A stretch of 60,527 nucleotides of DNA, taken from IMG/VR virus record IMGVR_UViG_3300043811_000231, positions 1 to 60,527 of that record. The stretch is one strand, 5' to 3'. The position numbers and the translations under genes were made by a program. A model generated the notes under the pieces. That model was given only the letters and a program-made list of their open reading frames with translations. It did not search any database and was not told the origin of the DNA. Every line of letters starts with the position of its first letter. The stretch's first letter is position 1. Origin of the DNA: a virus (lineage: Duplodnaviria; Caudoviricetes). Shown here one piece after another: positions 1 to 60,527 of the stretch.

Positions 1-127
1 AGTGTACGATGCGCCCCCGTCAATCGAGAGCCTCACTGAGTTGGACCCGTTGTTTTGGATCACAATCGTCTTATCGTACGGACCGGGCTTAATGATGGTT
101 TTGGCCGTGGTCGAAAGAGTCGTGACT
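1..127. repeat. Terminal direct repeat, identical to 60401-60527 (circular assembly overlap)
   Basis: Exact 127-nt identity of the two window ends; an ORF reads through the junction. Confidence 0.97.
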
Positions 128-213
128 TGGCCGACCGACGCTTGGAGTGAAGCGGCAACAGTAAAAACGACAGCTGTAAAAAACAGTCTGAAAAAACGAA
201 GTTTTGAGATCAT
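1..213 (-). CDS. 5' part of a junction-spanning 140-aa protein with signal peptide (small beta-sandwich, spike/fibre-base-like); continues at 60400 down to 60191
   Basis: ATG at 213 reads MISKLRFFRLFFTAVVFTVAASLQA-SVGQVTTLSTT...VIQNNGSNSVRL, in frame with the 60191..60463 ORF. Confidence 0.8.
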   Translation of the reverse strand, partial: MISKLRFFRLFFTAVVFTVAASLQASVGQVTTLSTTAKTIIKPGPYDKTIVIQNNGSNSVRLSIDGGASYT

Positions 214-243: not shown

Positions 244-3159
244 CTACATTGAAATAGCCCCAAAAGTTTTAAACGTTGGTGATGCGATAGACCCTACCCA
301 CTGCCACCAAACCGTTCCATCGTTAACAAACCCAGAAGTAGCGCTCGGCGCACTCGAAGCGGTAGTCCCAGGAACGACGCACTTGTAAATGTTATTCCCC
401 ACCGTATAACGGTAATCTGAAAGTCGAACAGCCGTAGTCGCCGCCCACGCCCCATAATCGCCAGGCGCAAAACCGCCCGTAGCTGTAAATCCACCGGCCA
501 CCGTACAAACGAGCCCAATATACCCTCCCGCAGTCGGATTGGTTGCCAACACCTGATCACCCACACGCCAAATTCCAGTTGTAGGAGCGGTTGTTCCTGA
601 CTGATAAAACGTGCGAGGAAGCGTCTCTTGCTGAACTCCGTCAAAAAATGAAAGCTGATTCGAATTTACAATCACATCTCCAGTGCGAAGATCGTACGGG
701 CCGCTAACGACACCGCCTAGATCCGTATTCGGAATGATAAGGCGACCTGCGGAAACCGTTCCATGCGAGGACTCGTCCCGGTGTAGTAGATTATACCCGT
801 CAATCGCATACGGCCCGGTCTGAACGTACGTATGGTCCCGATTACGGCCGATCTGTAGCATCGTCACCGTTCCCTGCTGGTTGCTCCCTCCGTTCAACGT
901 CATTGCGCCCACGGAAACTTGAATATTGCCGGTAAGGCTGGAATTATAAGCCTCGAACGGAAGAGCGAACTGCGTACCCGCCCCGTAAATTCCTTTGGCC
1001 AAAAGATACCCATTTTGGTCAGTCACATTTACAACCACATATTGGTTAGTACCGCTATTTCCAAAAGGAACGCCGCCAGTAATAACATAACCGTCATTAC
1101 CAGTATCCGACGAAGACGAAATCGTCGTATTTTGATAAATCGTAGTCGCGGTCGTGTCGTACGCAGACCCACTGGTGGTCAGTCTAAACGCGTTGCCGCC
1201 CATCGCTGGCAAGTATGGAGGGTTTGTACTCGTGTTTGCAACGGTGACATTTGATCCGATCGTCCAACCTCCCGTGTTAGGATTGGAATTATAGGTCAAA
1301 AGGTTCTCAGGAGCTCCTGCTTCATCCTGATCAAAAATAAATTGGGAAGGCCCCGACCAAATCGAATAACTGCACTGTTCCTTGTGTATAAAGGAAGCAT
1401 TAGAACTTGTGTTTTCAAATAAACGACCACTAAAAATCGTATTTTTTTCACGCAGGCTTAAAAACTGAGCCTGATCTACCGCCAAACCGCCAGGATTTGT
1501 ATTGGGGTTGTTTATACTAAAAACACAATTATCTATAACGACGTTCGTATGCCCACCGCTGGTTTGAGTGTACGACGTATCACCGGATTGGTAGGACGCC
1601 GCTTCCACAATGTACGACCACGAAGCGTAATCAGACTGTGACTGCGTAGGTGCAACATACGCAACAGTCATCGAACCGTTGGTTTCATTCGCTTTGGTGG
1701 TAGTGGTTGGACCTGAAGAAGCCGAAGACGTACCACCAGAAACTACGCGATATGTGTTACCACCGTTCGTTAGAAACTGCTGTCCCTGATAAACCGTTGA
1801 AGCCGCCCAAGCCGTCAGAGTTCGTTGATTCATCCCGGCAAAACTGCAATCTCGGAACGTCACATTTCGTCCAGTACCGCCATTATTGTTAATTCGAAGT
1901 GCCACGGCGCACCCTTCCGAACGAACGCCGTTAAACGCAATAGGATCCCCCACACCCGTAAATTCCAAAGCAGCGCACATGTTCGGAGAAGACCCCCCGA
2001 TGCCGATGTTACCCCCATAAACATAAAACCCTGCGCCATTGTTGCCTTGAGATAAATTAGCCAACGGATTCAAAACTCGAATGCACGCCAATGGCCCCGT
2101 CTGAGCCGTCCCAGAATTCACGCCTATCGAACAGTCATAAACAGTGATACAAAACGAATCCCCGCCGTATACCGCGAGTCCGTACTGATTCGATTGAAAA
2201 TTACACCGGTAAAAAGAAATAAATTCCAGATTTCCGTTGGCCGGCTGCTGATTGATTTGAACACAAGTTGAAACGTTGTTCACGTAAACGTGGTCAAATC
2301 CTTCGGCACTCCCGTGACCTTGGAGGAGCACGCCGCATACGTTCCCATTGCCGTTAATCGAAAGATTTCGCAACATACTGGCGCGATCGTAGGTCTGGCT
2401 GCCCGTAACGCTATCAGGGACATAACAATCAAGTCCCGCAACCCAAGTCGTCGTGAGCCCCGCCGACCCACGCGTAAAAGTATAAACTCCCGCCGAAACT
2501 GAAAGCGTTCCGTGAATATTACCAATGGTTCCAGTTTCACTTCCAGATGCAAGCCACCCCGCCGGCGCCACAATAGTTGTGGCAGAACTATTGGCTCCTG
2601 CAATTGTCGCCCCAGTCGTAAGTTGAAACCCTGAATGTGCGCCCGTAAAAGTGTAGGCAAAAACAACCGCCGGAAGCGTAGTCGGACCAGTGTAAAGTAT
2701 CTGAGAATTCGAAGCGTTGTCCTGAACACCTTGGCCTTCTAATATAAAACCTGATACCCCGGCCGGAATAACAAGAGGCGCTGAAGTTTTACACGTAAAC
2801 CCAGCCGGAATATAGAGAATCCCGCCTTTCCCACCCGACGCCGCCACAGTGGCATTGATCGCAGCCTGAATCGCCGCCGTATCATCGGTTGTACCGTTGC
2901 CAACCGCTCCATACCACGCAACAGAAGCTTGAGTTGGTAAAATATTTTGCGGGAGCGGTCCCCACACCCCGTTCCCATACAAAATAGTGTTCGAAGAAGG
3001 GATCCCGGTACCGAGATTTGTTGGCGGCAAAACTGCCGATCCTTGAGTCAAAGATTGATTAAGCGTAAGTGTCCCGGTGATCGTAGGATTGACTAGCTGC
3101 GCACGACAAACCGTTAAAAACAACTCGCAAAAAAGAAGCATTCGTAAGAACCGTTTCAT
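244..3159 (-). CDS. Tailspike/depolymerase-like protein (pectate lyase 3 beta-helix) with N-terminal signal peptide
   Basis: WYGAVGNGTTDDTAAIQAAINA beta-helix cap; fibre motif GTGIPSSNTILYGNGVW; two W-A-A-x-T carbohydrate-binding-like modules; N-terminus MKRFLRMLLFCELFLTVCRA-Q. Confidence 0.8.
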   Translation of the reverse strand: MKRFLRMLLFCELFLTVCRAQLVNPTITGTLTLNQSLTQGSAVLPPTNLGTGIPSSNTILYGNGVWGPLPQNILPTQASVAWYGAVGNGTTDDTAAIQAAINATVAASGGKGGILYIPAGFTCKTSAPLVIPAGVSGFILEGQGVQDNASNSQILYTGPTTLPAVVFAYTFTGAHSGFQLTTGATIAGANSSATTIVAPAGWLASGSETGTIGNIHGTLSVSAGVYTFTRGSAGLTTTWVAGLDCYVPDSVTGSQTYDRASMLRNLSINGNGNVCGVLLQGHGSAEGFDHVYVNNVSTCVQINQQPANGNLEFISFYRCNFQSNQYGLAVYGGDSFCITVYDCSIGVNSGTAQTGPLACIRVLNPLANLSQGNNGAGFYVYGGNIGIGGSSPNMCAALEFTGVGDPIAFNGVRSEGCAVALRINNNGGTGRNVTFRDCSFAGMNQRTLTAWAASTVYQGQQFLTNGGNTYRVVSGGTSSASSGPTTTTKANETNGSMTVAYVAPTQSQSDYASWSYIVEAASYQSGDTSYTQTSGGHTNVVIDNCVFSINNPNTNPGGLAVDQAQFLSLREKNTIFSGRLFENTSSNASFIHKEQCSYSIWSGPSQFIFDQDEAGAPENLLTYNSNPNTGGWTIGSNVTVANTSTNPPYLPAMGGNAFRLTTSGSAYDTTATTIYQNTTISSSSDTGNDGYVITGGVPFGNSGTNQYVVVNVTDQNGYLLAKGIYGAGTQFALPFEAYNSSLTGNIQVSVGAMTLNGGSNQQGTVTMLQIGRNRDHTYVQTGPYAIDGYNLLHRDESSHGTVSAGRLIIPNTDLGGVVSGPYDLRTGDVIVNSNQLSFFDGVQQETLPRTFYQSGTTAPTTGIWRVGDQVLATNPTAGGYIGLVCTVAGGFTATGGFAPGDYGAWAATTAVRLSDYRYTVGNNIYKCVVPGTTASSAPSATSGFVNDGTVWWQWVGSIASPTFKTFGAISM

Positions 3160-3197: not shown

Positions 3198-3914
3198 TTA
3201 ACCGAGAGATACGACCACAGAACTATCCGACGCCCCTATGCAGCGCAGGGTAATGCGTAACCACGCACCGGCAGCCAAAGTTGAAGGAAGAGCAAACCCG
3301 TTTGCCTGCTGCCACGACGAATTCCATGTTAGATTGATCGTTCCCCCCGTCGAATTATTTATATCCAAAACCTGAGACGCCCCTGCTAATACACCCAAAG
3401 ACCCCCCGGGAGAAAATGACGCCGACCCTGCCAGTACCGCCAATCCGTACGTGCCTGCTAAAAAAGTAACCTGGATATTTCCAGAAGACGCGTAATTATA
3501 TGGAACTGCGTTTCCAATATAACTATTAAAGTTCACGGCTTGCGATGGATTTGTAACAAACCCGGAAGCCCCTACATATACAGGACTGGCGGGAGCAATG
3601 CCAGTCCCTCCGACCCACCCAACCACCGCTAAAATAGGATTCCCCGAATAAATTATTATGGCCAGCACTGGCGACCACCCGTTTAACCCCGGGGTAGAAA
3701 CTACGGGCGGAAGTGGCGAAGTCGGTGTCGAAACTGTGATGCCGTTCGAACTCGCCGTTGGAATTTTTTGAACCGCCGTGTTTAATTGCTGTATAGCCAA
3801 GGCAACCTCATTAGCCCACTGCGCCACAGCCGCCTGGTATTGCCCTTCCGGAGAAGAAGGAGGCGCCACGACCCGCGGCGCATTATCAACCGAAATTGGA
3901 CTTACTAAAGCCAT
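3198..3914 (-). CDS. Virion tail/fibre-adaptor protein
   Basis: ATG overlaps upstream stop (TAATG); N-terminal coiled coil then beta-rich C-terminus; tail module context. Confidence 0.55.
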   Translation of the reverse strand: MALVSPISVDNAPRVVAPPSSPEGQYQAAVAQWANEVALAIQQLNTAVQKIPTASSNGITVSTPTSPLPPVVSTPGLNGWSPVLAIIIYSGNPILAVVGWVGGTGIAPASPVYVGASGFVTNPSQAVNFNSYIGNAVPYNYASSGNIQVTFLAGTYGLAVLAGSASFSPGGSLGVLAGASQVLDINNSTGGTINLTWNSSWQQANGFALPSTLAAGAWLRITLRCIGASDSSVVVSLG

Positions 3915-6328
3915 TAGTACACAGAGCCTGTTCGCCCATTCAAAGTCATTTTTGAAATACGCCAGCCACACCCGGCTTGATTGCTGTTTATACGCACCCG
4001 CAAGTAACGACCCGACCTCTGAATATTTACTTTAGTAATCACGTTTCCATCGCCGTTGACATTTAAATTAACCGGATTCGACCACACTACAGCGTCATCT
4101 AAATTATTACGTGACCCAAGTTGAACCGTAATTACGAACGGGTTGGCCTGCGGAACAAGTGGAAGTCCGGTCTGCAGCGAAATCATCAAAGTGTCGCCAT
4201 ACTTCCAAACTTGCGAATCTCCACCGTCCATATCCGGAGTTTCGTATTGGCAAAGCATCGCCACTCCGTCCCGGTCGTAATTTTGGTTTAAAACGGCCAA
4301 AGTTGGGTTCCCCACTGTCTCGTTGTTTTGAAACCCAGCGAGCATAAAATTGGTCTGAGAACCCGCAAACAAAGATTGCCATGTGGCTGACGCTGGCCAC
4401 GAACCCGGGTTCACCCAAGTGCCAAGCGCCACGGCCCATGTGATGTTCGGACTAAATTTGAGTCGTGAGAGTGCCGTTATCCCGTGCAATACTAACGAAG
4501 GATGAACGCTGGGATCGTAGTCGTCGATCGTGCACGAATCTTCGACATAGTTGTAAATAAAAACTCGGTACGGCGCGTCCGTGGACACCGTACCAGCCAC
4601 CGGATATACAAACCCGATCTCGAAATCCTGTTCGTTGTGATACCCGATAATCTCATCGGCCCGAGTCCGATCCAACTCTGCAAAAACTTCAACCGAATGC
4701 TGCCGTCCAATCGGTACCAATTGAGATCCGCCGGCATACCTATAAAACTCCCGGTTCCCAAAAATATACATGGTGTCGAGCCCAACCTTTGCGAAAGAAT
4801 ACCGCCCAATAAGTCCTTCATCCGTAACCTGCGGCCGAATAAAAAAAGTGCCTTGGGCGATTCCGACGTACTGCATCGATTGGATCGACCGATTTTTAAA
4901 AATGTATCCATAATCTCCCAACGTGTCACACCAAAGAATGGGGCCGTTGACGAGCACCCCTGCGTTTTGCAAAGCTCCCGCACCATTGGCATCCACGGAC
5001 AAAATCTGCGTACCGGAAGGAACAATGGTGCCTTGTGCCAAAACACCAGTCAGGTTCAAAGCTTCCATCTGAAACGCATTGTACTCTAGAAGTGGTGTGG
5101 CAAACGAGCCTGCAGCTGCCACGGCTGAAGTATTCGTCACAGCGACAAACGGCTGCGGCACAATGATCTCCCCGGCGTAATGAACCGTTGCCCCAGTGAA
5201 CCCAACACCGGTTGCCTGAAGAATAATCGTATTCGTTGACGAATTCACCGACACCACCAAGTAAATATCAGACCCGGCAAATGCAGACACCCCAACTGAT
5301 ACATACGTGCCTGGCAAATACTGAGGCGCTACCGCGGTACTGACTGTAACCTGTCCTCCCGGTGAAGGAATATTGAAATTTGCCGCCACCGCCGTTGCCA
5401 ATGTCCCAGGATCGATTGCCGCCGCCGAAACTTGCAAAACCGCCGAGTTGTTTTGAAAGTACAAAAATTCTCCGGTTTGATACGGAACAAAACTGTTGAT
5501 GTACACGTTCCCCGGCTGACCAGCAGGGATTCCCTGTGCATACCCGGCGACTTGACCATTCTGCCCAGTAATTGGAGCAACTGCAGAGACTTGAAAATAC
5601 GACGTGGTACCCCCGTACTGCATGCTCATAAACTGCCCCAGTGCGAGTAAAGATGCGGTCTGCGAATCGACAAAAATCCACCCCGTAGCGTCTCCAGCTT
5701 CTGGCATTGTGAAGGATTGGATCGTATTTAAAAGCGCAGAGGTAGCGGTTTCTCCCACGGGAATCCAGCAATCCATATTGTCCGTCGCACACCACTGCAA
5801 CAGGCTGTCATTCCATATTAAAACATAATCCCTGAATACGTTAACTCCTTTCCACTTCAAAGTAGGATCAAGGCCAATCACCGGAATAACTGTCCCGGTT
5901 CCATACCACTGCAATAGTATGGAATCAACCTGGGCAAAAACAACCCGGTTGAAAAACGTAGCTGCACTTATACGATTCTGAGAACTGGCAATATCATTTC
6001 CGAAATCGTATAATTGAGTCAGCACCGCGTCGGGAAAAACCGATGGGATTGAAATTGAATATATTTTTCGAGCCGTACCGATTATTCCGACATCTGAAGC
6101 CGGGTTATAAAACTGAGTTTGAAAAATCAAATTAACCGGAGAGTCCAACGGTTCATTTAACGACACGGATACGAACCCTTTTGCATTTTTAACAACGCCT
6201 TTTTCAAAACGAACATTAGACGCTACTGTAGCTGCACGAGGATCCGGTTCATCAGACGCCACGCGAGTGATCAGCCCCAATGTAGGAGCCGCCACCTTTA
6301 TCTCGAAACCTCCTCCAAGACGGCGCAT
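3914..6328 (-). CDS. Tail nozzle / tail tubular protein B (P22 gp10-like)
   Basis: 804 aa, beta-rich; N-terminal ASNVRFEKG and C-terminal RSGRYLRVRI motifs typical of podovirus nozzle proteins; synteny. Confidence 0.7.
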   Translation of the reverse strand: MRRLGGGFEIKVAAPTLGLITRVASDEPDPRAATVASNVRFEKGVVKNAKGFVSVSLNEPLDSPVNLIFQTQFYNPASDVGIIGTARKIYSISIPSVFPDAVLTQLYDFGNDIASSQNRISAATFFNRVVFAQVDSILLQWYGTGTVIPVIGLDPTLKWKGVNVFRDYVLIWNDSLLQWCATDNMDCWIPVGETATSALLNTIQSFTMPEAGDATGWIFVDSQTASLLALGQFMSMQYGGTTSYFQVSAVAPITGQNGQVAGYAQGIPAGQPGNVYINSFVPYQTGEFLYFQNNSAVLQVSAAAIDPGTLATAVAANFNIPSPGGQVTVSTAVAPQYLPGTYVSVGVSAFAGSDIYLVVSVNSSTNTIILQATGVGFTGATVHYAGEIIVPQPFVAVTNTSAVAAAGSFATPLLEYNAFQMEALNLTGVLAQGTIVPSGTQILSVDANGAGALQNAGVLVNGPILWCDTLGDYGYIFKNRSIQSMQYVGIAQGTFFIRPQVTDEGLIGRYSFAKVGLDTMYIFGNREFYRYAGGSQLVPIGRQHSVEVFAELDRTRADEIIGYHNEQDFEIGFVYPVAGTVSTDAPYRVFIYNYVEDSCTIDDYDPSVHPSLVLHGITALSRLKFSPNITWAVALGTWVNPGSWPASATWQSLFAGSQTNFMLAGFQNNETVGNPTLAVLNQNYDRDGVAMLCQYETPDMDGGDSQVWKYGDTLMISLQTGLPLVPQANPFVITVQLGSRNNLDDAVVWSNPVNLNVNGDGNVITKVNIQRSGRYLRVRINSNQAGCGWRISKMTLNGRTGSVY

Positions 6329-16027: not shown

Positions 16028-16629
16028 TTTGTTGGTGCTCCATTAAATTTACAACACGCCGTGGGAAACACGCGGAAGTCGCCTTTGCCGCAGTACATGC
16101 TACGCCCCTGGCTATCCGGCGCATGCGCCTTCGATGCGAAGGGACAACGGTGGCAACCGAAGCCGGCTCCGTTCTTAGCCACTCCATACGCCGCGCCGGT
16201 CACATCCTCAATATTGGTCATCATCTCGGGATCGCCCGCGCACTTGTTCTCCCAATGGCGGCAACTCCCAGCCTTCTCATCCACCACGAGAGGATCGAGT
16301 TCCTTTTTCCCAAAAACCCACGTACATTTGGACTTGGTTTCCTTGTTACACCGGCCGCAGTTATAGTTCCCCTCCGGATCGTACGTCCGGGTATTCCCCG
16401 TGTACATATCGGCATAGTTGGCATGGTTGGCAAAATCCAACCGCTTGTGATTTTCTTCCAGCTCCCGCTCCGGACCCTGCGTCGTTGGTTGAATGCACAA
16501 TCCGTCCTCGCCACGAAGGGGATCGGTTATTTTTCTACCCTCCACTTTGACCACCGGGGGTTGTTCAACCCGGCCGTTTTTCACCTTGTACAGACTCGTG
16601 GCAAGGCCAGATTTTTTATTTTCGTCCAC
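16024..16629 (-). CDS. Cys-rich protein with two HiPIP-like Cys clusters
   Basis: CGRC..C..GSCRHW and CHRC..C..CCKF modules. Confidence 0.6.
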   Translation of the reverse strand: MDENKKSGLATSLYKVKNGRVEQPPVVKVEGRKITDPLRGEDGLCIQPTTQGPERELEENHKRLDFANHANYADMYTGNTRTYDPEGNYNCGRCNKETKSKCTWVFGKKELDPLVVDEKAGSCRHWENKCAGDPEMMTNIEDVTGAAYGVAKNGAGFGCHRCPFASKAHAPDSQGRSMYCGKGDFRVFPTACCKFNGAPTK

Positions 16630-45687: not shown

Positions 45688-45703
45688 TTGACAGATGGAA
45701 AGT
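45688..45703 (+). promoter_or_regulatory. Phage promoter motif TTGACAGATGGAAAGT
   Basis: Exact 16-nt match to 20177-20192. Confidence 0.65.
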
Positions 45704-45726
45704 TTTTACGAAGCTGGCACTCACTT

Positions 45727-46434
45727 ATGAAACAACTGCCTTTTGGTATTATCTTCGGCGGCACGCTTCCGGCAGTCGCCGTCTTATCCTCCACCAAGAC
45801 CACGATTTCCGGCACCGTTACCCAATTCAATGCGTGGATCGCGGAGATCAACACGAACTTCGCCAATTACGGTTACGCTTCGACGCCTAACCTTCCTCTC
45901 CTTCCGACCATCCCCACTCCCGGTTCCACGGCTCCCAACGGCATTGCCTATTTCCAATCGACGCCGCCCGGCGGCACGAGCCTCGGAAGTGGGCCGGCAT
46001 CAAGCTTCCTCCTCATCGACGCCTTCACGAGCAATGGGTACAGCGATCCAAGCGGTGCGCTCGACACGCTGACGGCCGATGCCACGCTGCTCAGTCTGGC
46101 CATAGCCAGGGCCTCCCTGTCCACCGCCGCACCCGTCGCCATCACGGTCCAGCCGACCAACCAGTCGATCGCCCACAATGCCGCCGGCGCAATCGCGCTC
46201 ACGGCCACAGGAACCGGTGCTCTTTTCACGTGGCTTGTGAATCTGCCCAACACGACTGGCTTCCAGCTCTGCACCACGGCAGACGGCGTGCTCTCGACCA
46301 TCAACACGGCCTCCCTCACTATCACCAATCCGCCTCTGGCTAAATACAACGGTGCCAAGTTCGCCTGTATCGTTGATTCGGCTGCCGGCGGTCAGCGCCT
46401 CTGGTCCACGGTTGTCACCCTCACGGTCACTTGA
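45727..46434 (+). CDS. Ig-like domain protein (possible capsid decoration)
   Basis: C-terminal ITVQPTNQS...W...LTIT...NGAKFACIV...LTV I-set pattern; shares promoter motif with capsid gene. Confidence 0.7.
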   Translation: MKQLPFGIIFGGTLPAVAVLSSTKTTISGTVTQFNAWIAEINTNFANYGYASTPNLPLLPTIPTPGSTAPNGIAYFQSTPPGGTSLGSGPASSFLLIDAFTSNGYSDPSGALDTLTADATLLSLAIARASLSTAAPVAITVQPTNQSIAHNAAGAIALTATGTGALFTWLVNLPNTTGFQLCTTADGVLSTINTASLTITNPPLAKYNGAKFACIVDSAAGGQRLWSTVVTLTVT

Positions 46435-46537: not shown

Positions 46538-47608
46538 ATGAAAACCAAACTCTTCAGCTTCCTCAGTCTCTTCGTGGCCCTCACTTTTGGCCTCTTTTCT
46601 CCCACTTATGCTGCCGTCACAACCGGCATCACCCAGCCGATTTCGGTGCCGTACAACAACCCCACGCTTACCACGTTCACCATCCCGGCTGTCAATCCGA
46701 ACAACTACCTACTCCGCGGAGACGGCTCTCTGGTATCCGGTTCGGATCTTGCCGCCGTAATTTCCGGCGGTGGGAGTGGCGTTACCGGCTCCGGGTTGGC
46801 AGTTTTTCAAACGGCCCCCACGATCATCACACCTGTAATTTCCACAGGTTTGACGGCATCCGGTTCAGCTGCGAATGATTTTTCGGCTTCCACCGGTGCC
46901 TTTAAAGCATCGTCTGGAGCAACTACGTTGCCCAATCTCACGAGCAACGGCCTTGTTACCACCAGCGGAGGCACCGGTCTATTGTCTGTGACGGCCACGA
47001 CGGGCTCAGGAAGCGCCGTTTTGGCCACAAGCCCTACGTTGGTAACTCCGACCCTCGGAGCCGCATCGGCCACCAGCATCGCCGTCAACGGCGGCATTGC
47101 ACAGCATCTCGTGATCAACACGTCCACGTCGGGCCAGACGCCCGCAGCCACCACCAGGACGTACATTACAGGCTCGGCAATCGCCATCCCGGCGACCGGT
47201 CTTCAAGTCGGCACCGTGCTCCATTGGCATTTCGACATGACGAAAACTGCTGCCGGGTCTGCTTCCAGTACGATCGACATCGCCTTTGGAACCGCCGGCA
47301 CCACGGCTGACACGGCGCAAGTTTCCTTCACCAAACCCGCCGGCACGGCCGCATCCGACGAAGCGTTTTGCGAAGTCGAGTGTGTCATCAAGACCATCAA
47401 TGCTTCGACCGGCGTGGCCATTGGTGAATTCACCATGGGCCATAATTTATCAGCCACCGGTCACGCCACTATTCCTTTCGTGGCGGTGAACACCACTTCA
47501 GGCTCGTTCAACACGGTTTCGCCAACCTTTGTTGGCCTGTGTATCACGACCGGCGCCTCCGACGCCATCACGATCAACCAGGTCAGTTCGTACGCGCTGA
47601 ATATGTAA
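46538..47608 (+). CDS. Fibre-like protein with N-terminal signal peptide
   Basis: MKTKLFSFLSLFVALTFGLFSPTYA-A; fibre motifs LLRGDGS and TGSGSAVLATSPTLVTPTLG. Confidence 0.75.
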   Translation: MKTKLFSFLSLFVALTFGLFSPTYAAVTTGITQPISVPYNNPTLTTFTIPAVNPNNYLLRGDGSLVSGSDLAAVISGGGSGVTGSGLAVFQTAPTIITPVISTGLTASGSAANDFSASTGAFKASSGATTLPNLTSNGLVTTSGGTGLLSVTATTGSGSAVLATSPTLVTPTLGAASATSIAVNGGIAQHLVINTSTSGQTPAATTRTYITGSAIAIPATGLQVGTVLHWHFDMTKTAAGSASSTIDIAFGTAGTTADTAQVSFTKPAGTAASDEAFCEVECVIKTINASTGVAIGEFTMGHNLSATGHATIPFVAVNTTSGSFNTVSPTFVGLCITTGASDAITINQVSSYALNM

Positions 47609-47642: not shown

Positions 47643-47672
47643 AAAAGTCCGGGTTAAAAGCCCGGACTTTTT
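47643..47672. terminator. Bidirectional intrinsic terminator between convergent modules
   Basis: AAAAGTCCGGG-loop-CCCGGACTTTT. Confidence 0.85.
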
Positions 47673-52821: not shown

Positions 52822-52860
52822 TAACGTACCTTCGACGAAAATCCGCCGTTCGACAACCTT

Positions 52861-54279: not shown

Positions 54280-54282
54280 TTG

Positions 54283-55143
54283 TTATGCAATAAAATCAGT
54301 GGCTAGACTGTCAGAAGTCGGAGAGCTCCCCTCAACAGGAGTGTAGCCGCCGCCGCCTGCCGAAGGCCCGTTGATACTGTTGTACAAAGAATAAATTCCT
54401 TGTGCCGACTGAATACCTGTACCAATCGCGTTTCCAATATTTGGTTGTTGCACGTACGTCGGCTGCGGACTGTATGGATTGTTTCCGAGGAGCCCAGTCG
54501 TAATTTGAGCCTGTTGTTGATAAGGTGCGTAAAGTGCTTGGTTGACCTGCCCCAAATATGTCGAAGGCTGAGCAACCAAACTTTCGCCAAGTCCGACAGC
54601 CCCCTGCTGAAGCTGCCGTTCCTGCTGGTAATTTTGAGACAGGATTCCGGCACGTGTCTGTGCCGCCTGATTAGCCGTCGCCGCCGTGCCCGCCTGCTGT
54701 GCCTGCTGCATTGCGGTGGAAAAACCAAGACCGTTATTAGCGTAATTCGCCTGCGTTCTCGCGTTCTCGTTTTGGCCCTGGCTGATTATCGAATTATACG
54801 CCTGATTAGCGTAGTTATTGACGATTGGAGAAGTGAGATCGCCTCCCGCAAGTTCGTTGCTCGTGTACGCGTTTGCCGATCCCAACAAGGGATTGCTCGC
54901 CGCACTGTTTAATGAATTTGCGTATGCTTGGGACGCTGCGACTGCCTGCGGATTCACGGTGCCGTTGTTTAGCGCCCCGTAAATGTTGTTCATCGAGGTA
55001 ACGGCTCCCTCGTTGGGCGTGTTCATCTGCCCATAAGCATTATAAAACGTAGGCGGCAGTTGTTGCGGTTGTGACGCATTCATCGACCCGTACGCGGAAA
55101 GCCCACCCCCAACAACGGCTCCGATTGCTGCAATGTAGCCCAT
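54283..55143 (-). CDS. DNA ejection / pilot protein
   Basis: Gly/Ala hydrophobic N-terminus (AAIGAVVGGGLSAYGS), Gln/Asn/Ala-rich. Confidence 0.65.
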   Translation of the reverse strand: MGYIAAIGAVVGGGLSAYGSMNASQPQQLPPTFYNAYGQMNTPNEGAVTSMNNIYGALNNGTVNPQAVAASQAYANSLNSAASNPLLGSANAYTSNELAGGDLTSPIVNNYANQAYNSIISQGQNENARTQANYANNGLGFSTAMQQAQQAGTAATANQAAQTRAGILSQNYQQERQLQQGAVGLGESLVAQPSTYLGQVNQALYAPYQQQAQITTGLLGNNPYSPQPTYVQQPNIGNAIGTGIQSAQGIYSLYNSINGPSAGGGGYTPVEGSSPTSDSLATDFIA

Positions 55144-55658: not shown

Positions 55659-56209
55659 AGTTCCTTTTGAGCCAAAGCCGCCCAAACCGGGAGACGCGCA
55701 CCGATAAGAATGACCGATGCCACTTTCGGAGGAATGCCTAAAATCAAGGCGGTGATAGCGGTAAACGCGCCTGGATTCGGGTGCAGTTTTTTCCCGCGCT
55801 GGTGCAGCAACTCTGTAACCGCCTTTATCTTCTCAGCGCTTTCGGGAAAAACTTGCAACGCTCTTGAAACGGATTCCCAGAGTGGATCCGGGCACTCTTT
55901 AAAAAACGAATTTCCCCAGCCTTGGACAATCTCATGGTTATCCAATGATTTTTCAACAGACTCTAAAAGCAAGTCCATCGGCTGACTAAGACGCCCGTAA
56001 ATAGCTTCAATTGGCGCATGTTTTCCTCCGAAAGTTAAAACTGCCGAAGCAACTGCCATCTCAAACGAACCAGAACCGCCCGCTGAATTTTTCAACGCAC
56101 AGGTGCTGGCATTTTCTCTGAAAGCCGACATCCGATGAGCTTGCTCAACTTCGAATACCAGAGCTTCTTCATTCTTCGTGAGTGGAAGATCTCTCCAAAA
56201 AACGATCAT
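55655..56209 (-). CDS. Citrate synthase / citryl-CoA lyase-fold protein, catalytically divergent
   Basis: NAST, GGKHAP, GWGN, DPL, HPNPG, ARLPVWAA align in order with citrate synthase motifs. Confidence 0.7.
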   Translation of the reverse strand: MIVFWRDLPLTKNEEALVFEVEQAHRMSAFRENASTCALKNSAGGSGSFEMAVASAVLTFGGKHAPIEAIYGRLSQPMDLLLESVEKSLDNHEIVQGWGNSFFKECPDPLWESVSRALQVFPESAEKIKAVTELLHQRGKKLHPNPGAFTAITALILGIPPKVASVILIGARLPVWAALAQKEL

Positions 56210-56550
56210 GGTGCCTCCGCAGCAACGCCCGCTTTCGCCGGACCTTGGTACGCCACGTCGCGCCGTTTTGCAATTTCATCAACCTTGGTTTTGATCTCAT
56301 AAATGGCGGTTTTCATGTCGGCGAGCTGGTTTTTTTCGTCCGCCTGCTCCGCTTGAACCGCAACCATGGTTGCCCGGGTTTCTGCGCCTGTCTCAACATT
56401 TTCGCACCAACGCCCCACCCGGTAAGCGAGTCCGCAAAGGACGCCGCTCGCTACGATGACACTGACAAGAGTTCTCCATGTAGGACGCATGCTGCCTTCA
56501 TCAACATCCCTATCGTCATCTCTTCGCCTCCAATGTTTCGGGGGTGCCAT
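56206..56550 (-). CDS. Membrane protein with coiled coil (i-spanin/holin-like)
   Basis: One TM helix then heptad pattern; lysis context. Confidence 0.5.
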   Translation of the reverse strand: MAPPKHWRRRDDDRDVDEGSMRPTWRTLVSVIVASGVLCGLAYRVGRWCENVETGAETRATMVAVQAEQADEKNQLADMKTAIYEIKTKVDEIAKRRDVAYQGPAKAGVAAEAP

Positions 56551-56556
56551 TGTTTT

Positions 56557-57180
56557 TTAATTTGTAAAACAGGCATTTATCGCGGCTTCGTAGTTGGGAA
56601 AAATGTGATGCGCTCGGACGCTAAAGATCGGAACCCCGGGCGCCGGCGAGATGCTGACCGTATTCGGTATGCTCTGGTAACCAGGCGCGGCCAGAGGAAC
56701 GATGTCTCCCTCCACCCACACGTGCGATAATACGTTGGCTTTGTTGAGCACGTCCGCACTGACCAACCGCGGACACGCAAAAACAACCGCCGGAATACCA
56801 AGGATAGCAGAGAGAGTTATGGCCAGCGGACCCCCGCGGCTGTGCCCACAAACGCCGCCGATTTCGTAAGCGTTGAGCGGTTTGCCGGAGAGCCATCGCC
56901 ACGAACGCACTGTCTGCCAGATGCCACGCGACATTGCACCGAGCGGTGTATCTACCGGCAAGAAGTCAAAATCAAGAATCCACTCCTCGCCGTCGCGTGT
57001 ACCAGCGATGCCTAGAATCGGCTTACCCCCAGGCCCCGGTACGAGCGCACCGTACGGCAACGGCCCATCAAGATCGTCGGCGAGCAGCGTGTCGATCAAT
57101 CCCGACTCTGTACCGGAACCGGTAAGAGGGAGATTGTAAGCCGCTTCCTGTGCTGGAAAAAAGGAGCGGGGGTCGAACAT
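56557..57180 (-). CDS. Class 3 lipase (alpha/beta hydrolase)
   Basis: IAGT...WILDFD lid, GHSRGG nucleophile elbow, FACPR, GDIVP, AHH. Confidence 0.88.
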   Translation of the reverse strand: MFDPRSFFPAQEAAYNLPLTGSGTESGLIDTLLADDLDGPLPYGALVPGPGGKPILGIAGTRDGEEWILDFDFLPVDTPLGAMSRGIWQTVRSWRWLSGKPLNAYEIGGVCGHSRGGPLAITLSAILGIPAVVFACPRLVSADVLNKANVLSHVWVEGDIVPLAAPGYQSIPNTVSISPAPGVPIFSVRAHHIFPNYEAAINACFTN

Positions 57181-57182
57181 AA

Positions 57183-57635
57183 CTATTGAGGCACAAGCGA
57201 TGGGTTGGCCTGAGCCACGGCGATGGCGGCATTGATTCCGGCGGCAAAGTCTTTCAACTGGCTCCACTCAGCGCCGGTAATAAGAGTCGGGTTACTACCC
57301 GAATTAACCTTCGCAATGTCTCCATTAAGCGCGTCGAGTGCGGACACGCCGGTAAGATCCGCCTTGGTGTGGGACAAATTGGCGATAATCCCGGCCAAAA
57401 TCGTGTTATCGGCCGGCGTAAGCGCCGTGCCCGAGGCAACGCCTGGCAAATCGTTGGCGAGCTGCTGAAGCTGGGACACCGTGGCGATCTTATTTTGAAT
57501 CGAGTACGCCGCGCCAATCTCGCCAGTGTTGGCCACAAGATCAGCTGCGGCCGTGGCTTGAACTTGGGCAGTCGTGCAAGCAGAAGTAAACAGAAGCGCG
57601 AGCAGCGCGACGGATAGGACAAGGACGTTTTTCAT
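57183..57635 (-). CDS. Lipoprotein (o-spanin-like position)
   Basis: MKNVLVLSVALLALLFTSA-C lipobox. Confidence 0.7.
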   Translation of the reverse strand: MKNVLVLSVALLALLFTSACTTAQVQATAAADLVANTGEIGAAYSIQNKIATVSQLQQLANDLPGVASGTALTPADNTILAGIIANLSHTKADLTGVSALDALNGDIAKVNSGSNPTLITGAEWSQLKDFAAGINAAIAVAQANPSLVPQ

Positions 57636-57892
57636 GGTATGGTTGATTTCGTTGGGTCTGGCAGCGGCTGCCCAGCACGGGCCACCGTTTGATTGAGATA
57701 CGCTAGCAGCGTTGTGCCTGCCAAGGCAAGCACCTTGACGCAGTCGAGAATGATTTGCCCGCGAGTAAGCGCCGACAGTTCGGCCGGTGTAAGGCTGCCA
57801 AAAACGTCCTCAACCGCCATTGCATTCGTCACGACGAAAAAAATCACGCCGGTCAAAATCGACCTTCCGTACTTTTTTAAAAAAGAGAGCAT
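57632..57892 (-). CDS. Putative holin
   Basis: 86 aa, two hydrophobic helices, basic N-terminus. Confidence 0.55.
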   Translation of the reverse strand: MLSFLKKYGRSILTGVIFFVVTNAMAVEDVFGSLTPAELSALTRGQIILDCVKVLALAGTTLLAYLNQTVARAGQPLPDPTKSTIP

Positions 57893-57893
57893 G

Positions 57894-60194
57894 TTAGTTA
57901 ATCTGTTGAATGATACCTTCGGCATTATAAGTTACGCTGGTAAAAGTACCGACCGTGGCAAAAGTAATCGCCGTGGACGCCTTGGCCCGGATGTGGAGGG
58001 GCACGCCCTCGTAAGCCCCGACGCCGAGTGCGTTGGTAATCGTGGTCAGGAAGGTACCAGTCACGCTGGAGAAGTTCATGGTCAGCGTGCGGGAGGTATT
58101 GGTTTCATCCGTGTAGGTGCAGGTGCAGGTGAAGGAGTTCGTGGTCGAAGCGGTGACGTTGATGTTGGCCGACACGATGAAGCTCCCGTCCGCCGCGCCG
58201 ACCGTGTAAGTGGAAAATGCGGCGGCGGCACCTGTCTGCCCGGTGACACGCCCGGAGGCATAGATGGCGGGGTGACCCCAGCCAGCCGTATTTACGTTAT
58301 TATAGACCGACTCCTTCCCTTGGTTAGAGAGAGTCGTGCAGGTAATCTGCCCACTGGCATTGACCCTTCCACCACCGATTCCAACTGAAGTCGTGGCATT
58401 ACCTATCGTATTTGTCACCACCAAAGCTCCTTGGTTGCTCGATCCTGAATTGGTACCGGTCGTCGTGCTGTCCACGATGACAAGTGAATGCGCTCGTGAG
58501 GTAGTCAGGCTGCCCGCCACTGCCGCTGGGCCAACCATCAGAACGTTCTGAATATCTGTCGCGGCGCCGGCAGACGAGTCGGTAAAAGTCGGCGCCCCCA
58601 TGTAAATGCCCTGCAGACTTGTAGCCGTATTAGTACCGGTAACCGTAGTAGTGTAAGCGGGAAGCGTTAGCGTCGTGCCAAAGGTGGTCGCGCCAGATGG
58701 ATTGGCTCCGTAGGTGTAGGCACCTCCTAGGATCGACTGGCCAGAAGCCACATCGAGTGCGTAATCATTGGTAATGGCCAGCGTGGAGGCCGTCGGCTGC
58801 CCAGCGATGTAATTCGTAGCTGCAGTCGTAATCGTTCCGGAGGCGGCGGAGTAGGTGGGGATGCCTTGGTAAAGCGCCGCCACTGTCGCCGGCTCTGAGG
58901 TCTGGAAGGTCGTCGTTGCGGAGGGAATGTTTACCCCGGTCGCAACCGGGGTCGTTGGATTAGTCGAAAAGGTATAAGCCGTGCCTCCAAAGTTGGAAGG
59001 TCCGGCTTCCACGTCGAGCGCCCAAGGTTGGGATAGAATGGCGTTGGTGCCCTGGATCGGCGGCGCACTGATGTCGAGGGTTGAAGCCACGGTGAAGGTC
59101 TGCGAGGCAGATGCGCTGGCAAGAGTGTCCGCCACAAAGTGATATTCGTACTGATCCGCCACGGTGCCGGTCGTCGCCCAGGTGCGCGTAGCGCCTGTCG
59201 TCTGCAACACGGGTACCGTCGTTGCGGCAGTTAAACCTGTATCCGCAGCTGCCGTGATCTGCACGTCAGGTAGCACGCCGGAAGTCTTGGCGGTTGAAGT
59301 AACGGTGAGCGGCGCTGTCGTTGCCGTACCATTAAATACCGCAGGCCCGGTGAATGTCGCAGTGCCCGTTCCAATGGTTACGGATCCAGTAGATGTCTTG
59401 AATGTGCCTGTGCTTGCAGAAAAGTCATTCGCACCCGAACCTGAGGCCGTCAGTCCGCCTGCAATCACAGGCGTCGTCATAGACCACGAGGTGGTCGAGC
59501 TGGCACCAGTGAATGTGTTAGCTGCGTCGGTTCTTGCCACGGTGGCCGATGTTGCCGGGAACGTCATTGTCGTCCCATCAGTTCCGGCCAAGGTCAGGCT
59601 GTTGTTGAAGGTGAGCGTTTTTGCTGCGCCGCCCGTCAACGTGTAGCTGCCAGTCGTGAACGTATCTCCATTGATCGTCGAAGAAAATGTCGCGGCGTTC
59701 GCAACAGTGAGAAGCCCCGCGCTACTTATGCTCATCGCATCTGCCGCAGTCGGGCTTCCTACGATGAAGTGGATGGCATTACTGGTCGTAGTTCCGATGG
59801 CAAGATCTCCGCTATTAGAGTAGAGATAGGTCGCACTCGGCGCATTGAAATTACCACTACCGGTGAACGCCGAGCTGTTAATTCCGAAATCGCCATAGTA
59901 CGTCGTCGCCGTACCGAGGTTATTATTGACGATATAGTCGGCCGAAGCGCCGGTTCCCGCATTCGTATTTTGAAGAATAGATTGAAAATATCCCGTTTGA
60001 CTCCCCGTGATCTGAAGACCTACACCAGTGTCAGTAATCACAGGAATTCCGATATTGACGGGAGCTGTCAATGTGGGGTTGACGGTTAAACCGGCGACTG
60101 AGCTAATGCTGGGACTTCCGCCCAAAGACGCAGATTGAGCACCGAGCCCCAACGCCGTACTCAAAGCAAGTACGAGAAAAATGAATTTTTTCAT
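57894..60194 (-). CDS. Long Thr/Ala/Gly-rich tail fibre-like protein with signal peptide
   Basis: MKKFIFLVLALSTALGLGA-Q; fibre motif KTLTFNNSLTLAGTDGTTMTFP..SATVARTDAANTFTG. Confidence 0.78.
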   Translation of the reverse strand: MKKFIFLVLALSTALGLGAQSASLGGSPSISSVAGLTVNPTLTAPVNIGIPVITDTGVGLQITGSQTGYFQSILQNTNAGTGASADYIVNNNLGTATTYYGDFGINSSAFTGSGNFNAPSATYLYSNSGDLAIGTTTSNAIHFIVGSPTAADAMSISSAGLLTVANAATFSSTINGDTFTTGSYTLTGGAAKTLTFNNSLTLAGTDGTTMTFPATSATVARTDAANTFTGASSTTSWSMTTPVIAGGLTASGSGANDFSASTGTFKTSTGSVTIGTGTATFTGPAVFNGTATTAPLTVTSTAKTSGVLPDVQITAAADTGLTAATTVPVLQTTGATRTWATTGTVADQYEYHFVADTLASASASQTFTVASTLDISAPPIQGTNAILSQPWALDVEAGPSNFGGTAYTFSTNPTTPVATGVNIPSATTTFQTSEPATVAALYQGIPTYSAASGTITTAATNYIAGQPTASTLAITNDYALDVASGQSILGGAYTYGANPSGATTFGTTLTLPAYTTTVTGTNTATSLQGIYMGAPTFTDSSAGAATDIQNVLMVGPAAVAGSLTTSRAHSLVIVDSTTTGTNSGSSNQGALVVTNTIGNATTSVGIGGGRVNASGQITCTTLSNQGKESVYNNVNTAGWGHPAIYASGRVTGQTGAAAAFSTYTVGAADGSFIVSANINVTASTTNSFTCTCTYTDETNTSRTLTMNFSSVTGTFLTTITNALGVGAYEGVPLHIRAKASTAITFATVGTFTSVTYNAEGIIQQIN

Positions 60195-60527
60195 GGGGTG
60201 GGAAAAACCGTTTGGGTGCCGTCCGTTGCGATGTCGAGTGTCGTAGACCCGCTTACCATGATTGCAACGATAGGGGGTCGATAAACAGAACCGTTGCTAT
60301 TGGTTGTCGGGGCTGTTGGAACAATGTACTGCTGCCCCGCAGGAAGAAGGATGCCGGTTGTTGCGGTGGGGTTTGTCCCGGCGAGCCCGCTCGCAGGATC
60401 AGTGTACGATGCGCCCCCGTCAATCGAGAGCCTCACTGAGTTGGACCCGTTGTTTTGGATCACAATCGTCTTATCGTACGGACCGGGCTTAATGATGGTT
60501 TTGGCCGTGGTCGAAAGAGTCGTGACT
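60191..60527 (-). CDS. 3' part of junction-spanning signal-peptide protein (starts at 213)
   Basis: IQNNGSNSVRL...PTATTGILLPAG; stop overlaps ATG of the fibre gene. Confidence 0.8.
   Translation of the reverse strand, partial: VTTLSTTAKTIIKPGPYDKTIVIQNNGSNSVRLSIDGGASYTDPASGLAGTNPTATTGILLPAGQQYIVPTAPTTNSNGSVYRPPIVAIMVSGSTTLDIATDGTQTVFPTP
60401..60527. repeat. Terminal direct repeat, identical to 1-127
   Basis: Exact identity with 1-127. Confidence 0.97.

What the first reader, a model, noticed from the sequence alone, without database searches (positions are those of the whole stretch)
57894..60527. Tail fibre, tailspike and spike-base-like proteins all begin with Sec signal peptides
Seen: 57894..60194 (MKKFIFLVLALSTALGLGA-Q), the junction gene starting at 213 (MISKLRFFRLFFTAVVFTVAASLQA-S), 244..3159 (MKRFLRMLLFCELFLTVCRA-Q) and 46538..47608 (MKTKLFSFLSLFVALTFGLFSPTYA-A) each have basic n-, hydrophobic h- and Ala-ending c-regions, yet their bodies have typical fibre/tailspike motifs. 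Three are consecutive in the late operon, right before the lysis cassette. Known: tailed phages normally assemble fibres in the cytoplasm and use the N-terminus for virion attachment. Inference: these may be exported and attach at or after lysis, act as soluble depolymerases or decoys, or coat the host.
Basis: partly seen in the sequence, partly recalled or inferred. Interest (0 to 1): 0.82.

Follow-up and report, generated by a model that had tools for sequence, protein, structure and literature searches.

The report
Phage tail fibres carrying secretion signals
An uncultured short-tailed phage puts ordinary bacterial secretion signals on its fibre- and spike-like proteins, so this host-recognition gear probably folds outside the cytoplasm, where tailed phages are thought to build all their parts.

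Summary
The window is a complete 60.4-kb podovirus genome with 127-bp terminal repeats.

**The four leaders.** All four named proteins begin with Sec-type leaders. The one on the 971-aa spike is the weakest, because it has a Glu in the hydrophobic core.

**Why the leaders are real:**
- All 3 full-length relatives of the spike carry a leader followed by Gln.
- 42 of 119 listed relatives of the 766-aa fibre carry one, and 25 of those 42 have Gln at +1.
- The 140-aa junction protein belongs to a family with 18 leader-bearing and 24 leaderless members. The leaderless ones start exactly at the predicted cut.
- Leader status of this small protein and of the next fibre gene agrees in 12 of 12 loci.

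**Context.** The genes sit in a mobile cassette with membrane proteins, a lipoprotein and a lipase-like enzyme.

**Precedent.** GenBank records of cultured Cellulophaga phages label similar leader-bearing proteins as found by mass spectrometry in virions.

**Open question.** Export is well supported. I could not settle whether the proteins then join the particle at lysis (my best guess, about 0.5) or act as free enzymes or decoys.

This scan has noted the same phenomenon on other DNA many times. I found no paper describing it for tail fibres.

The parts
244..3159 (-). P971: leader-bearing beta-helix spike-like protein with CBM5/12-like repeats; 17 Cys
   Evidence: ORF. Residues 79-122 match the N-terminal cap of pectate-lyase-like beta-helices, below Pfam's cut-off. 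Three full-length relatives, 38-54% identical, all carry leaders. Cys count.
3100..3159 (-). P971 leader, residues 1-20 (MKRFLRMLLFCELFLTVCRA|Q); weak because of Glu12
   Evidence: Aligned and conserved with the leader of the 1566-aa protein of relative G001.
2944..3099 (-). P971 post-leader segment, residues 21-72: candidate anchor
   Evidence: Residues 1-72 are 51% identical to residues 1-76 of G001's 1566-aa protein, after which the two diverge. Its LGTG.PS..T.L.G.G.W motif also lies at the N-terminus of leaderless fibre proteins in L136 and L138.
1..213 (-). P140, 5' part (residues 1-71), including leader residues 1-25 at 139-213 (MISKLRFFRLFFTAVVFTVAASLQA|S)
   Evidence: Bases 1-127 repeat 60401-60527.
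60191..60527 (-). P140, 3' part: small beta-sandwich protein between the two large genes
   Evidence: Family of 46 proteins. Model pLDDT 92, eight strands. Ortholog in G001 is 46% identical and carries a leader.
57894..60194 (-). P766: leader-bearing long fibre-like protein; leader residues 1-19 at 60138-60194 (MKKFIFLVLALSTALGLGA|Q)
   Evidence: P0049 is 53% identical over residues 1-164, leader included.
59505..59684 (-). P766 residues 171-230: widespread phage-fibre repeat module
   Evidence: 101 of 116 pattern-matched stretches in IMG/VR encode relatives, most of them of this segment. Shared with G001's 1566-aa and 619-aa proteins; P356 matches the neighbouring residues 242-274.
57900..58316 (-). 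P766 C-terminal domain, residues 627-765
   Evidence: 51% identical to ORF56 of record BK067788; 69-75% identical to C-termini in L004 and L005.
46538..47608 (+). P356: leader-bearing fibre-like protein at the end of the plus-strand block; leader residues 1-25 at 46538-46612
   Evidence: 73% identical over 33 aa to P766 residues 242-274. No family hit.
45688..46434 (+). P248: protein with a C-terminal Ig-like 'head protein' domain and a possible weak leader from Met14
   Evidence: phrog_613, E 4e-7.
3198..3971 (-). P257: leaderless short fibre or socket candidate; N-terminal ~55 aa conserved, C-terminus variable among relatives
57632..57925 (-). P97: small protein with two hydrophobic segments (holin-like by shape only)
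   Evidence: No family hit.
57183..57635 (-). P150: lipoprotein-type leader (LFTSA|C)
   Evidence: Lipoproteins of similar size and place occur in G001, L114 and L116; those of G001 and L114 are 34% identical to each other.
56557..57267 (-). P236: class-3-lipase/esterase-like alpha/beta hydrolase (GHSRGG), no leader
   Evidence: phrog_21992, E 1.4e-10. Weak Pfam Lipase_3 hit. Homologs travel with the cassette in G001, G003 and L114.
60401..60527 (.). Direct terminal repeat (identical to 1-127): complete, circularly closed assembly

Best explanation
P971, P140, P766 and P356 carry genuine Sec/signal-peptidase-I leaders. P971-P140-P766 form a tail-fibre/tailspike cassette that the host Sec system exports late in infection. 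The leaders are cut (after Ala20, Ala25 and Ala19), and the proteins fold and probably associate with one another in the periplasm.

They most likely dock onto otherwise finished particles only when the inner membrane is breached at lysis. Docking would use the conserved segment just after the leader.

**Shown:** presence of the leaders, their conservation, their modular gain or loss, their co-variation between neighbours, and the fibre ancestry of the proteins.

**Inferred:** export, cleavage, periplasmic folding and late docking.
For: 1. **Leaders are conserved while sequence diverges.**
 - All 3 full-length P971 relatives have a leader followed by Gln.
 - 42 of 119 listed P766 relatives have a strong leader, and 25 of those 42 have Gln at a candidate +1. 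The background Gln frequency is 2.7%.

2. **P140 family shows a natural experiment** (46 proteins). Judged by where the domain starts and by eye, 18 have a ~26-aa leader, 24 have none, and 4 are unclassifiable. The leaderless ones start M-IKQVT exactly where the leader-bearing ones are predicted to be cut.

3. **Leader status co-varies.** The P140 homolog and the next gene agree in 12 of 12 loci: 10 both with a leader, 2 both without. Fisher p = 0.015 ignoring relatedness. In L117 the upstream gene is also leaderless and starts at the cut site of its L114 and L116 homologs.

4. **The proteins have fibre ancestry.**
 - The P766 repeat is shared with many IMG/VR phage fibre genes, most of them leaderless.
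 - Module relatives hit PHROG tail families and the endosialidase-chaperone domain.
 - P971's post-leader motif occurs at the N-terminus of leaderless fibres.

5. **The anchor is conserved.** P971 residues 1-72 are 51% identical to the first gene of the same slot in relative G001, and the two diverge afterwards.

6. **There is a cultured precedent.** Cellulophaga phage phi18:3 gp085-087 and phiSM gp08 begin with leaders followed by Gln. Their GenBank records annotate them 'structural protein ... experimental MS/MS proteomics'. They lie directly upstream of lysis genes.

7. **Cysteine content fits.** P971 has 17 Cys, whereas the core internal proteins have 0 in 2474 aa. Leader-bearing P766 relatives have about twice the Cys of leaderless ones.
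Against: - No attachment is shown, and no docking partner was identified.
- The cassette is dispensable for the backbone. Relative L087 has a single 182-aa gene in the slot, and G002 has leaderless fibres there.
- The cassette moves between positions and travels with membrane, lipoprotein and lipase genes, as an envelope-acting or exit module would.
- P356 lies on the other strand, at the end of the replication-gene block.
- phiSM gp09, a leader-bearing 'pectate lyase', is not MS-annotated. MS detection can also reflect co-purification.
- P766, P971, P356 and P140 themselves hit no PHROG tail family.
- The P971 leader fails my strict rule.
- The Bacteroidota O-glycosylation sequon is not enriched.
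- SignalP could not be run.
Confidence: 0.48

Rival explanations
1. The proteins are exported but never become part of the virion. They would be free periplasmic or released proteins of a mobile 'envelope' cassette. Possible roles are glycan-cutting enzymes that clear capsule or slime for exit, or fibre-derived binders that mask or destroy the receptor to block superinfection and protect progeny.
For: - The genes always sit beside membrane proteins, a lipoprotein and a lipase-like enzyme, and next to lysis genes in cultured phages.
- The cassette is absent or replaced in close relatives and changes position.
- P971 has the build of a secreted glycanase: leader, beta-helix and CBM-like repeats.
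- P356 is outside the late operon.
- phiSM gp09 is not MS-annotated.
- Exported non-virion genes inside tail regions are known, for example lambda Lom (passage seen in PMC12309495).
Against: - Leaderless homologs of the same module exist (L117, L124, and 24 of 46 P140 relatives). They would be trapped in the cytoplasm until lysis.
- The post-leader anchor is conserved while distal parts are swapped.
- Module relatives carry tail-protein and intramolecular-chaperone domains.
- phi18:3 gp085-087 and phiSM gp08 carry MS/MS structural annotation.
Confidence: 0.32
2. The proteins have a dual fate. The leaders are inefficient, especially that of P971. Part of each protein would fold in the cytoplasm and join particles in the classical way, and the rest would be exported as soluble enzyme or decoy.
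For: - The P971 leader has Glu12 and fails a strict rule.
- Both leaderless and leader-bearing forms of the same families function in nature.
Against: - The P766, P140 and P356 leaders are canonical.
- Co-variation of leader status between neighbours in 12 of 12 loci suggests that all partners must be in the same compartment.
Confidence: 0.12
3. The proteins are not exported. The hydrophobic N-termini would be uncleaved membrane anchors, buried helices, or products of wrong start calls.
For: - There is no experimental data and SignalP was not run.
- Alternative TTG codons exist inside the P766 and P971 leaders.
Against: - The n-h-c layout has small residues at -3/-1.
- Leaderless P140 relatives start at the predicted cut.
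- P140 has no alternative start before codon 51.
- The P766 start is coupled to the previous stop.
- Gln at +1 is strongly enriched among relatives.
Confidence: 0.05

Closest known systems
Cellulophaga phage phi18:3 gp085, gp086, gp087 (KC821620) and phiSM gp08 (KC821616)
   Same: - They are large late proteins beginning with a Sec-type leader followed by Gln.
- In phi18:3 there are three in a row, directly upstream of TM proteins, a glycosyl hydrolase and a lipoprotein.
- The records annotate them as structural by experimental MS/MS.
   Different: - I found no sequence similarity to the window's proteins. The tblastn of P766 against the phage collection found only BK067788.
- Host and phage backbone differ.
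- The records do not mention the leaders.
- The underlying paper (Holmfeldt et al. 2013, recalled) is not in the library and was not seen.
Classical leaderless podovirus tail fibres and tailspikes (P22 gp9, T7 gp17: recalled), and the leaderless relatives found here (L117, L124, G002, most loci)
   Same: Fibre repeats, a beta-helix, a conserved N-terminal segment with swapped distal parts, and a position in the structural operon.
   Different: Here a cleavable leader precedes the N-terminal segment, so the protein should leave the cytoplasm where the particle is built.
Exported phage accessory proteins encoded among tail genes: lambda Lom (seen in PMC12309495); Bor, Cor and T5 Llp (recalled)
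   Same: They carry a signal peptide or lipobox, are encoded within or beside tail-fibre genes, and act on the host envelope.
   Different: Those are small outer-membrane proteins or lipoproteins with no fibre architecture. P971 and P766 are large fibre- or spike-like proteins with leaderless phage-fibre homologs.
Leader-bearing proteins of unknown function obeying the Q-rule in Porphyromonas gingivalis prophages (PMC10367356, passages read)
   Same: They are phage-encoded Sec substrates with Gln after the cut, read as adaptation to the host's secretion system.
   Different: They are described as five genes of unknown function, not as fibres. Which genes they are is given in a supplement I could not open.
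Sec-exported and signal-anchor-release endolysins (fOg44 Lys44, P1 Lyz: recalled) and filamentous-phage coat proteins pIII/pVIII (recalled)
   Same: They are phage late or virion proteins that use the host Sec system before release.
   Different: Endolysins are not virion parts. Filamentous phages assemble at the membrane and are not tailed.

Membership tests
Sec / signal peptidase I signal peptide | Positively charged n-region | tested here: met
   P766 MKK, P140 K4/R6/R9, P356 K2/K4, P971 K2/R3/R6.
Sec / signal peptidase I signal peptide | Uninterrupted hydrophobic h-region of about 8-15 residues | tested here: inconclusive
   Met for P766, P140 and P356. P971 has Glu12 inside the stretch and fails the rule, but its relatives P0002-P0004 have clean h-regions.
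Sec / signal peptidase I signal peptide | Small residues at -3 and -1 (AXA-type cut site) | tested here: met
   The sites are LGA|Q, LQA|S, TYA|A and CRA|Q. Leaderless P140 relatives begin at the equivalent position.
Sec / signal peptidase I signal peptide | Actual translocation and cleavage | not testable with these tools
   Needs reporter fusions or N-terminal mapping. SignalP is not available here.
Bacteroidota Q-rule substrates | Gln at +1 after the cut | tested here: inconclusive
   2 of 4 window proteins (P766, P971) have it. So do 25 of 42 leader-bearing P766 relatives and 3 of 3 P971 relatives. P140 and P356 do not.
Bacteroidota Q-rule substrates | Host belongs to Bacteroidota | tested here: inconclusive
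   - There is no Shine-Dalgarno sequence upstream of genes.
- The TAnnTTTG motif is not enriched: 27 matches against 23 expected.
- No relatives were found in bacterial genomes.
- No organism names came with homologs.
- The Q-rule paper compared only five groups.
Bacteroidota Q-rule substrates | Enrichment of the general O-glycosylation sequon D-[ST]-[AILVMT] (motif recalled) | tested here: not met
   Observed against shuffled expectation: P971 3 vs 2.6; P766 2 vs 3.4; P356 1 vs 1.2; P140 0 vs 0.7.
Phage tail fibre / tailspike | Sequence modules shared with phage fibre or spike proteins | tested here: met
   The P766 repeat occurs in 101 confirmed IMG/VR stretches. P971 has a beta-helix cap motif. 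P356 shares a segment with P766. However, none of the four hits a PHROG tail family.
Phage tail fibre / tailspike | Conserved N-terminal attachment segment with exchangeable distal part | tested here: met
   P971 residues 1-72 against G001's 1566-aa protein: 51% identical, then divergent. This rests on one pair only.
Phage tail fibre / tailspike | Physical presence on the virion | not testable with these tools
   Needs virion proteomics or cryo-EM. The only support is by analogy with Cellulophaga phage records.
Exported moron-type envelope proteins (Lom/Bor/Llp-like) | Small outer-membrane protein or lipoprotein without homologs among virion proteins | tested here: not met
   P971, P766 and P356 are large and share modules with leaderless fibre genes. 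Only P150, the lipoprotein, fits this description.

The most novel reading that the evidence does not exclude
Some tailed phages arm themselves outside the cytoplasm. A mobile cassette encodes Sec-exported fibres and spikes with a small beta-sandwich partner, plus a lipoprotein, membrane proteins and a lipase-like enzyme.

The fibres fold in the periplasm. They snap onto finished but fibre-less particles only in the seconds between breach of the inner membrane and rupture of the outer membrane. Lysis and the last step of virion assembly would then be one coupled event.
Probability: 0.4. Interest if true: 0.9.

Novelty: new variant of a known kind. Interest (0 to 1): 0.72.

Why it matters
Textbook assembly of tailed phages takes place entirely in the cytoplasm. 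If host-recognition proteins routinely pass through the periplasm, several things follow:
- They gain access to disulfide formation, pyroglutamate capping and host glycosylation.
- The order of assembly and lysis would have to be rethought.
- Host-range prediction and engineering of such phages would need the leader and the export step.
- Virion proteomics and depolymerase mining would need re-reading.

The P140 family offers a clean comparative handle. Half its members carry a leader and half do not, and the leader status of neighbouring genes changes in step with it. The cultured Cellulophaga phages offer a direct experimental system.

Tried and rejected
**Complex prediction.** P257 x3 with P971 residues 21-80 x3 gave 'no answer' (score 0.00). 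The controls were not run. This is not evidence either way.

**Searches for relatives that found nothing:**
- P971 relatives in IMG/VR, by single protein and by alignment.
- Bacterial genomes, scanned with the capsid alignment and the P971 alignment, so there is no prophage and no host name.
- Cluster look-up of six NCBI-sourced fibre relatives, which gave no names.
- The capsid search, which gave 352 clusters but no organism names.

**Failed or empty locus scans.**
- The full P140 alignment and a leaderless-only alignment were too variable to scan with.
- A single leaderless member found no locus. Only 2 leaderless contexts are therefore in hand.
- Weak P140 matches L127 and L128 were dropped from the co-variation count, because they lie inside larger unrelated-looking ORFs.

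**Host and motif tests.**
- The Bacteroidota promoter motif is not enriched.
- The O-glycosylation sequon is not enriched.

**Limits of my hydropathy rule.** It over-called three leaderless P140 relatives and two long proteins. I therefore classified that family by domain offset and by eye.

**P140 against the small protein in the same slot of L102.** No similarity.

**Fold of P140.** Only weak PDB likeness (best hit Ena3A, E 0.03, TM 0.5), so no function follows from it.

**Literature.** Searches, and passages read, turned up no paper describing signal peptides on tail fibres.

**Earlier scan notes.** No notes exist on this genome and no look-alike sequence is held.
Full report
**What the window is.** The window is an IMG/VR virus record. 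Its first 127 bases repeat its last 127, so the unique genome is 60,400 bp and the assembly is closed.
- One long minus-strand block runs from about 19750 down through base 1 and on from 60527 to 47671.
- A plus-strand block runs from 20604 to 47608.
- The portal matches Pfam SU10_portal.
- Relatives of the capsid protein carry PF17236.
- The terminase is only about 25% identical to those of cultured podoviruses.
- The capsid has at least 352 related clusters, many on contigs of 55-72 kb, and 24 related IMG/VR loci.
- The phage therefore belongs to a large uncultured group of short-tailed phages.

**The observation.**
- The junction gene (P140) is real because of the terminal repeat.
- A simple n/h/c rule was applied to 78 ORFs. 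At the adopted starts it called P766, P140, P356 and the lipoprotein P150, with two further weak calls.
- The rule did not call P971, whose hydrophobic stretch holds Glu12.
- P140 has no in-frame start between codons 1 and 51, while its conserved domain starts near codon 28.
- The ATG of P766 overlaps the stop of P140.
- No Shine-Dalgarno sequence precedes any late gene.

**The leaders are real.**
- The three full-length relatives of P971 (38-54% identical) all start with a leader followed by Gln, although the region after the leader differs.
- Of 119 listed relatives of P766, 42 have a strong leader, and 25 of these have Gln at a candidate +1 site. The Gln background is 2.7%.
- P0049 is 53% identical to P766 from residue 1 to 164.
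- The strongest case is P140. Its family has 46 members.
- By domain offset and by eye, 18 members carry an N-terminal extension of about 26 residues with leader features, 24 do not, and 4 cannot be classed.
- My crude rule mis-called five of these.
- The leaderless members begin M-IKQVT, exactly where the leader-bearing ones read A|xIKQVT. The leader is thus a detachable module placed in front of an otherwise identical protein, and the predicted cut site is supported.

**What the proteins are.**
- P766 residues 171-230 form a repeat module found in 101 confirmed stretches of IMG/VR. Most of the 80 kept loci encode leaderless fibre-type proteins. Six loci (five distinct proteins) have leaders, each followed by Gln, judged by eye from a hydropathy listing.
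- The C-terminal 140 residues of P766 are 51% identical to ORF56 of record BK067788.
- P971 has the N-terminal cap motif of pectate-lyase-like beta-helices, below Pfam's cut-off.
- P971 also has repeats like those of carbohydrate-binding modules seen in P0005 and P0006.
- P356 shares a 33-residue segment with P766.
- P140 models confidently (pLDDT 92) as an eight-stranded beta-sandwich. It resembles many small uncharacterised phage proteins, and only weakly resembles solved structures.

**Context.**
- In the closest relative, G001 (capsid 91% identical), the same slot holds the following genes in order:
  - a P257-type gene;
  - a 1566-aa leader protein;
  - a P140 ortholog with a leader (46% identical);
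  - a 619-aa leader protein;
  - two further leader proteins;
  - a lipoprotein, a lipase homolog and a TM protein;
  - the conserved internal virion proteins.
- P971 and the 1566-aa protein are 51% identical over the leader plus about 50 residues and then diverge. This is the pattern of a conserved attachment segment with swapped distal parts.
- G002 (capsid 80%) has leaderless fibre genes in the slot.
- L087 has only one 182-aa gene there.
- G003 (capsid 74%) carries four leader genes plus lipase and TM genes. They are inserted between the two halves of the P804 homolog.
- The lipoprotein and the lipase of G001 are 34% and 39% identical to those beside the P140 module of the unrelated backbone L114.
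- The leader-bearing genes are therefore part of a mobile cassette.
- No peptidoglycan hydrolase of four common families is found in the genome, so 'lysis cassette' is a reading, not a finding.

**Co-variation.**
- I fetched P140 homologs with their neighbours from IMG/VR and metagenome contigs.
- Leader status of the P140 homolog and of the next gene agrees in 12 of 12 usable loci.
- Ten loci have both with a leader: the window, G001, L114, L115/L119/L120 counted once, L116, L121, L122, L123, L125 and L126.
- Two loci have both without: L117 and L124.
- L127 and L128 were dropped. L126's neighbour has a weak leader.
- The upstream gene agrees in L114, L116 and L117, but not in L123.
- In L117 the upstream protein starts M-ITSQ, where its L114 and L116 homologs read A|NITSQ and A|NISSQ.
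- Fisher's test gives p = 0.015, but the loci are related, so this is only indicative.
- The upstream proteins of L114 and L117 hit PHROG 'tail protein' phrog_1640 right after the leader position.
- That of L116 hits many tail-fibre PHROGs and the endosialidase chaperone domain.

**Precedent and literature.**
- In GenBank records of cultured Cellulophaga phages, phi18:3 gp085-087 and phiSM gp08 begin with leaders followed by Gln.
- They are annotated as structural 'based on experimental MS/MS proteomics analysis'.
- They lie just upstream of TM proteins, a cell-wall hydrolase and a lipoprotein.
- phiSM gp09, a leader-bearing 'pectate lyase', has no such note.
- A paper on Porphyromonas gingivalis phages notes five leader proteins of unknown function that obey the Q-rule (passages read).
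- The Q-rule paper compared only Bacteroidetes, Chlorobi, Spirochaetes, Chlamydiae and Cyanobacteria (passages read).
- My searches found no paper that describes signal peptides on tail fibres of tailed phages.

**Host.** The host is unknown. Gln at +1 and the lack of Shine-Dalgarno sequences point to Bacteroidota. Against that:
- the promoter motif is not enriched;
- the O-glycosylation sequon is not enriched;
- no cellular relatives were found.

**Reading.** Export by Sec, with cleavage, is the well-supported part. I put it at about 0.85.

Several points favour late docking to the particle:
- the fibre ancestry of the proteins;
- the conserved post-leader segment;
- the concerted gain or loss of leaders in neighbouring genes, which suggests partners that must meet in one compartment;
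- the MS-annotated analogues in cultured phages.

Other points favour free envelope-acting or receptor-masking proteins:
- the cassette is dispensable and mobile;
- it keeps company with a lipoprotein, a lipase and membrane proteins;
- P356 sits outside the late operon.

I rate late docking at 0.48, exported but non-virion proteins at 0.32, a dual fate at 0.12, and no export at 0.05.

The proposed timing is inference from general knowledge of holin lesions, not a result. It places docking in the interval between holin-type breach of the inner membrane and rupture of the outer membrane.

**Earlier notes of this scan.**
- Notes of this scan describe the same phenomenon on many other genomes.
- They gave me three leads: the Cellulophaga records, the sequon and the cysteines.
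- I checked these here. The first holds.
- The second does not hold in this window.
- The third holds for P971 and, on average, for leader-bearing relatives of P766.

Noticed in passing
whole window; 56206-57925: No match to Pfam SLT, Phage_lysozyme, Amidase_2 or Peptidase_M15_4 anywhere in this complete genome. The putative lysis region holds a 2-TMD protein, a lipoprotein, a class-3-lipase-like enzyme (GHSRGG) and a TM protein. The lipase-like gene travels with the cassette in G001, G003 and L114 and may be the lytic enzyme.
   Followed up: partly
3914-6328 (P804); G002, G003, G004: This virion structural protein (phrog_3287) is one gene here and in G001. In three relatives it is split after about residue 95, with 1.4 to 15.5 kb of other genes between the halves. 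The inserted genes include glycosyltransferase-like genes and the leader-gene cassette.
   Followed up: partly
57900-58316: The C-terminal 140 residues of P766 are 51% identical to ORF56 of a record named Nitrosopumilaceae spindle-shaped virus (BK067788). A receptor-binding-type domain is thus shared between a bacterial podovirus and a putative archaeal virus.
   Followed up: no
47671-55143 versus 244-3159: The three core internal virion proteins (1716, 472 and 286 aa) contain no cysteine at all in 2474 residues, whereas P971 has 17.
   Followed up: partly
upstream of 10383, 15787, 8636, 12334, 57635: Late genes lack Shine-Dalgarno sequences and instead have C/A-rich leaders, such as tcaacc...acttactc just before the ATG. 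This may be a phage-specific late promoter or a translation signal.
   Followed up: no
10454-11131 and 16024-16629: Two small proteins inside the structural operon are very rich in cysteine (14 of 225 and 11 of 201 residues), like zinc-binding proteins.
   Followed up: no
L015 4669-11158; L056 2296-8152; L120 1319-6598: Other viral and metagenome contigs carry runs of three to six consecutive leader-bearing fibre-like genes. In L056 the run lies directly upstream of small TM proteins, a lipoprotein-like gene and an M15-type peptidase-like gene.
   Followed up: partly
45688-46434: P248 has a C-terminal Ig-like domain of a PHROG 'head protein' family (phrog_613) and a weak leader-like stretch from Met14. 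It precedes P356 on the plus strand, after a RuvC-like resolvase and a cytosine methylase.
   Followed up: no
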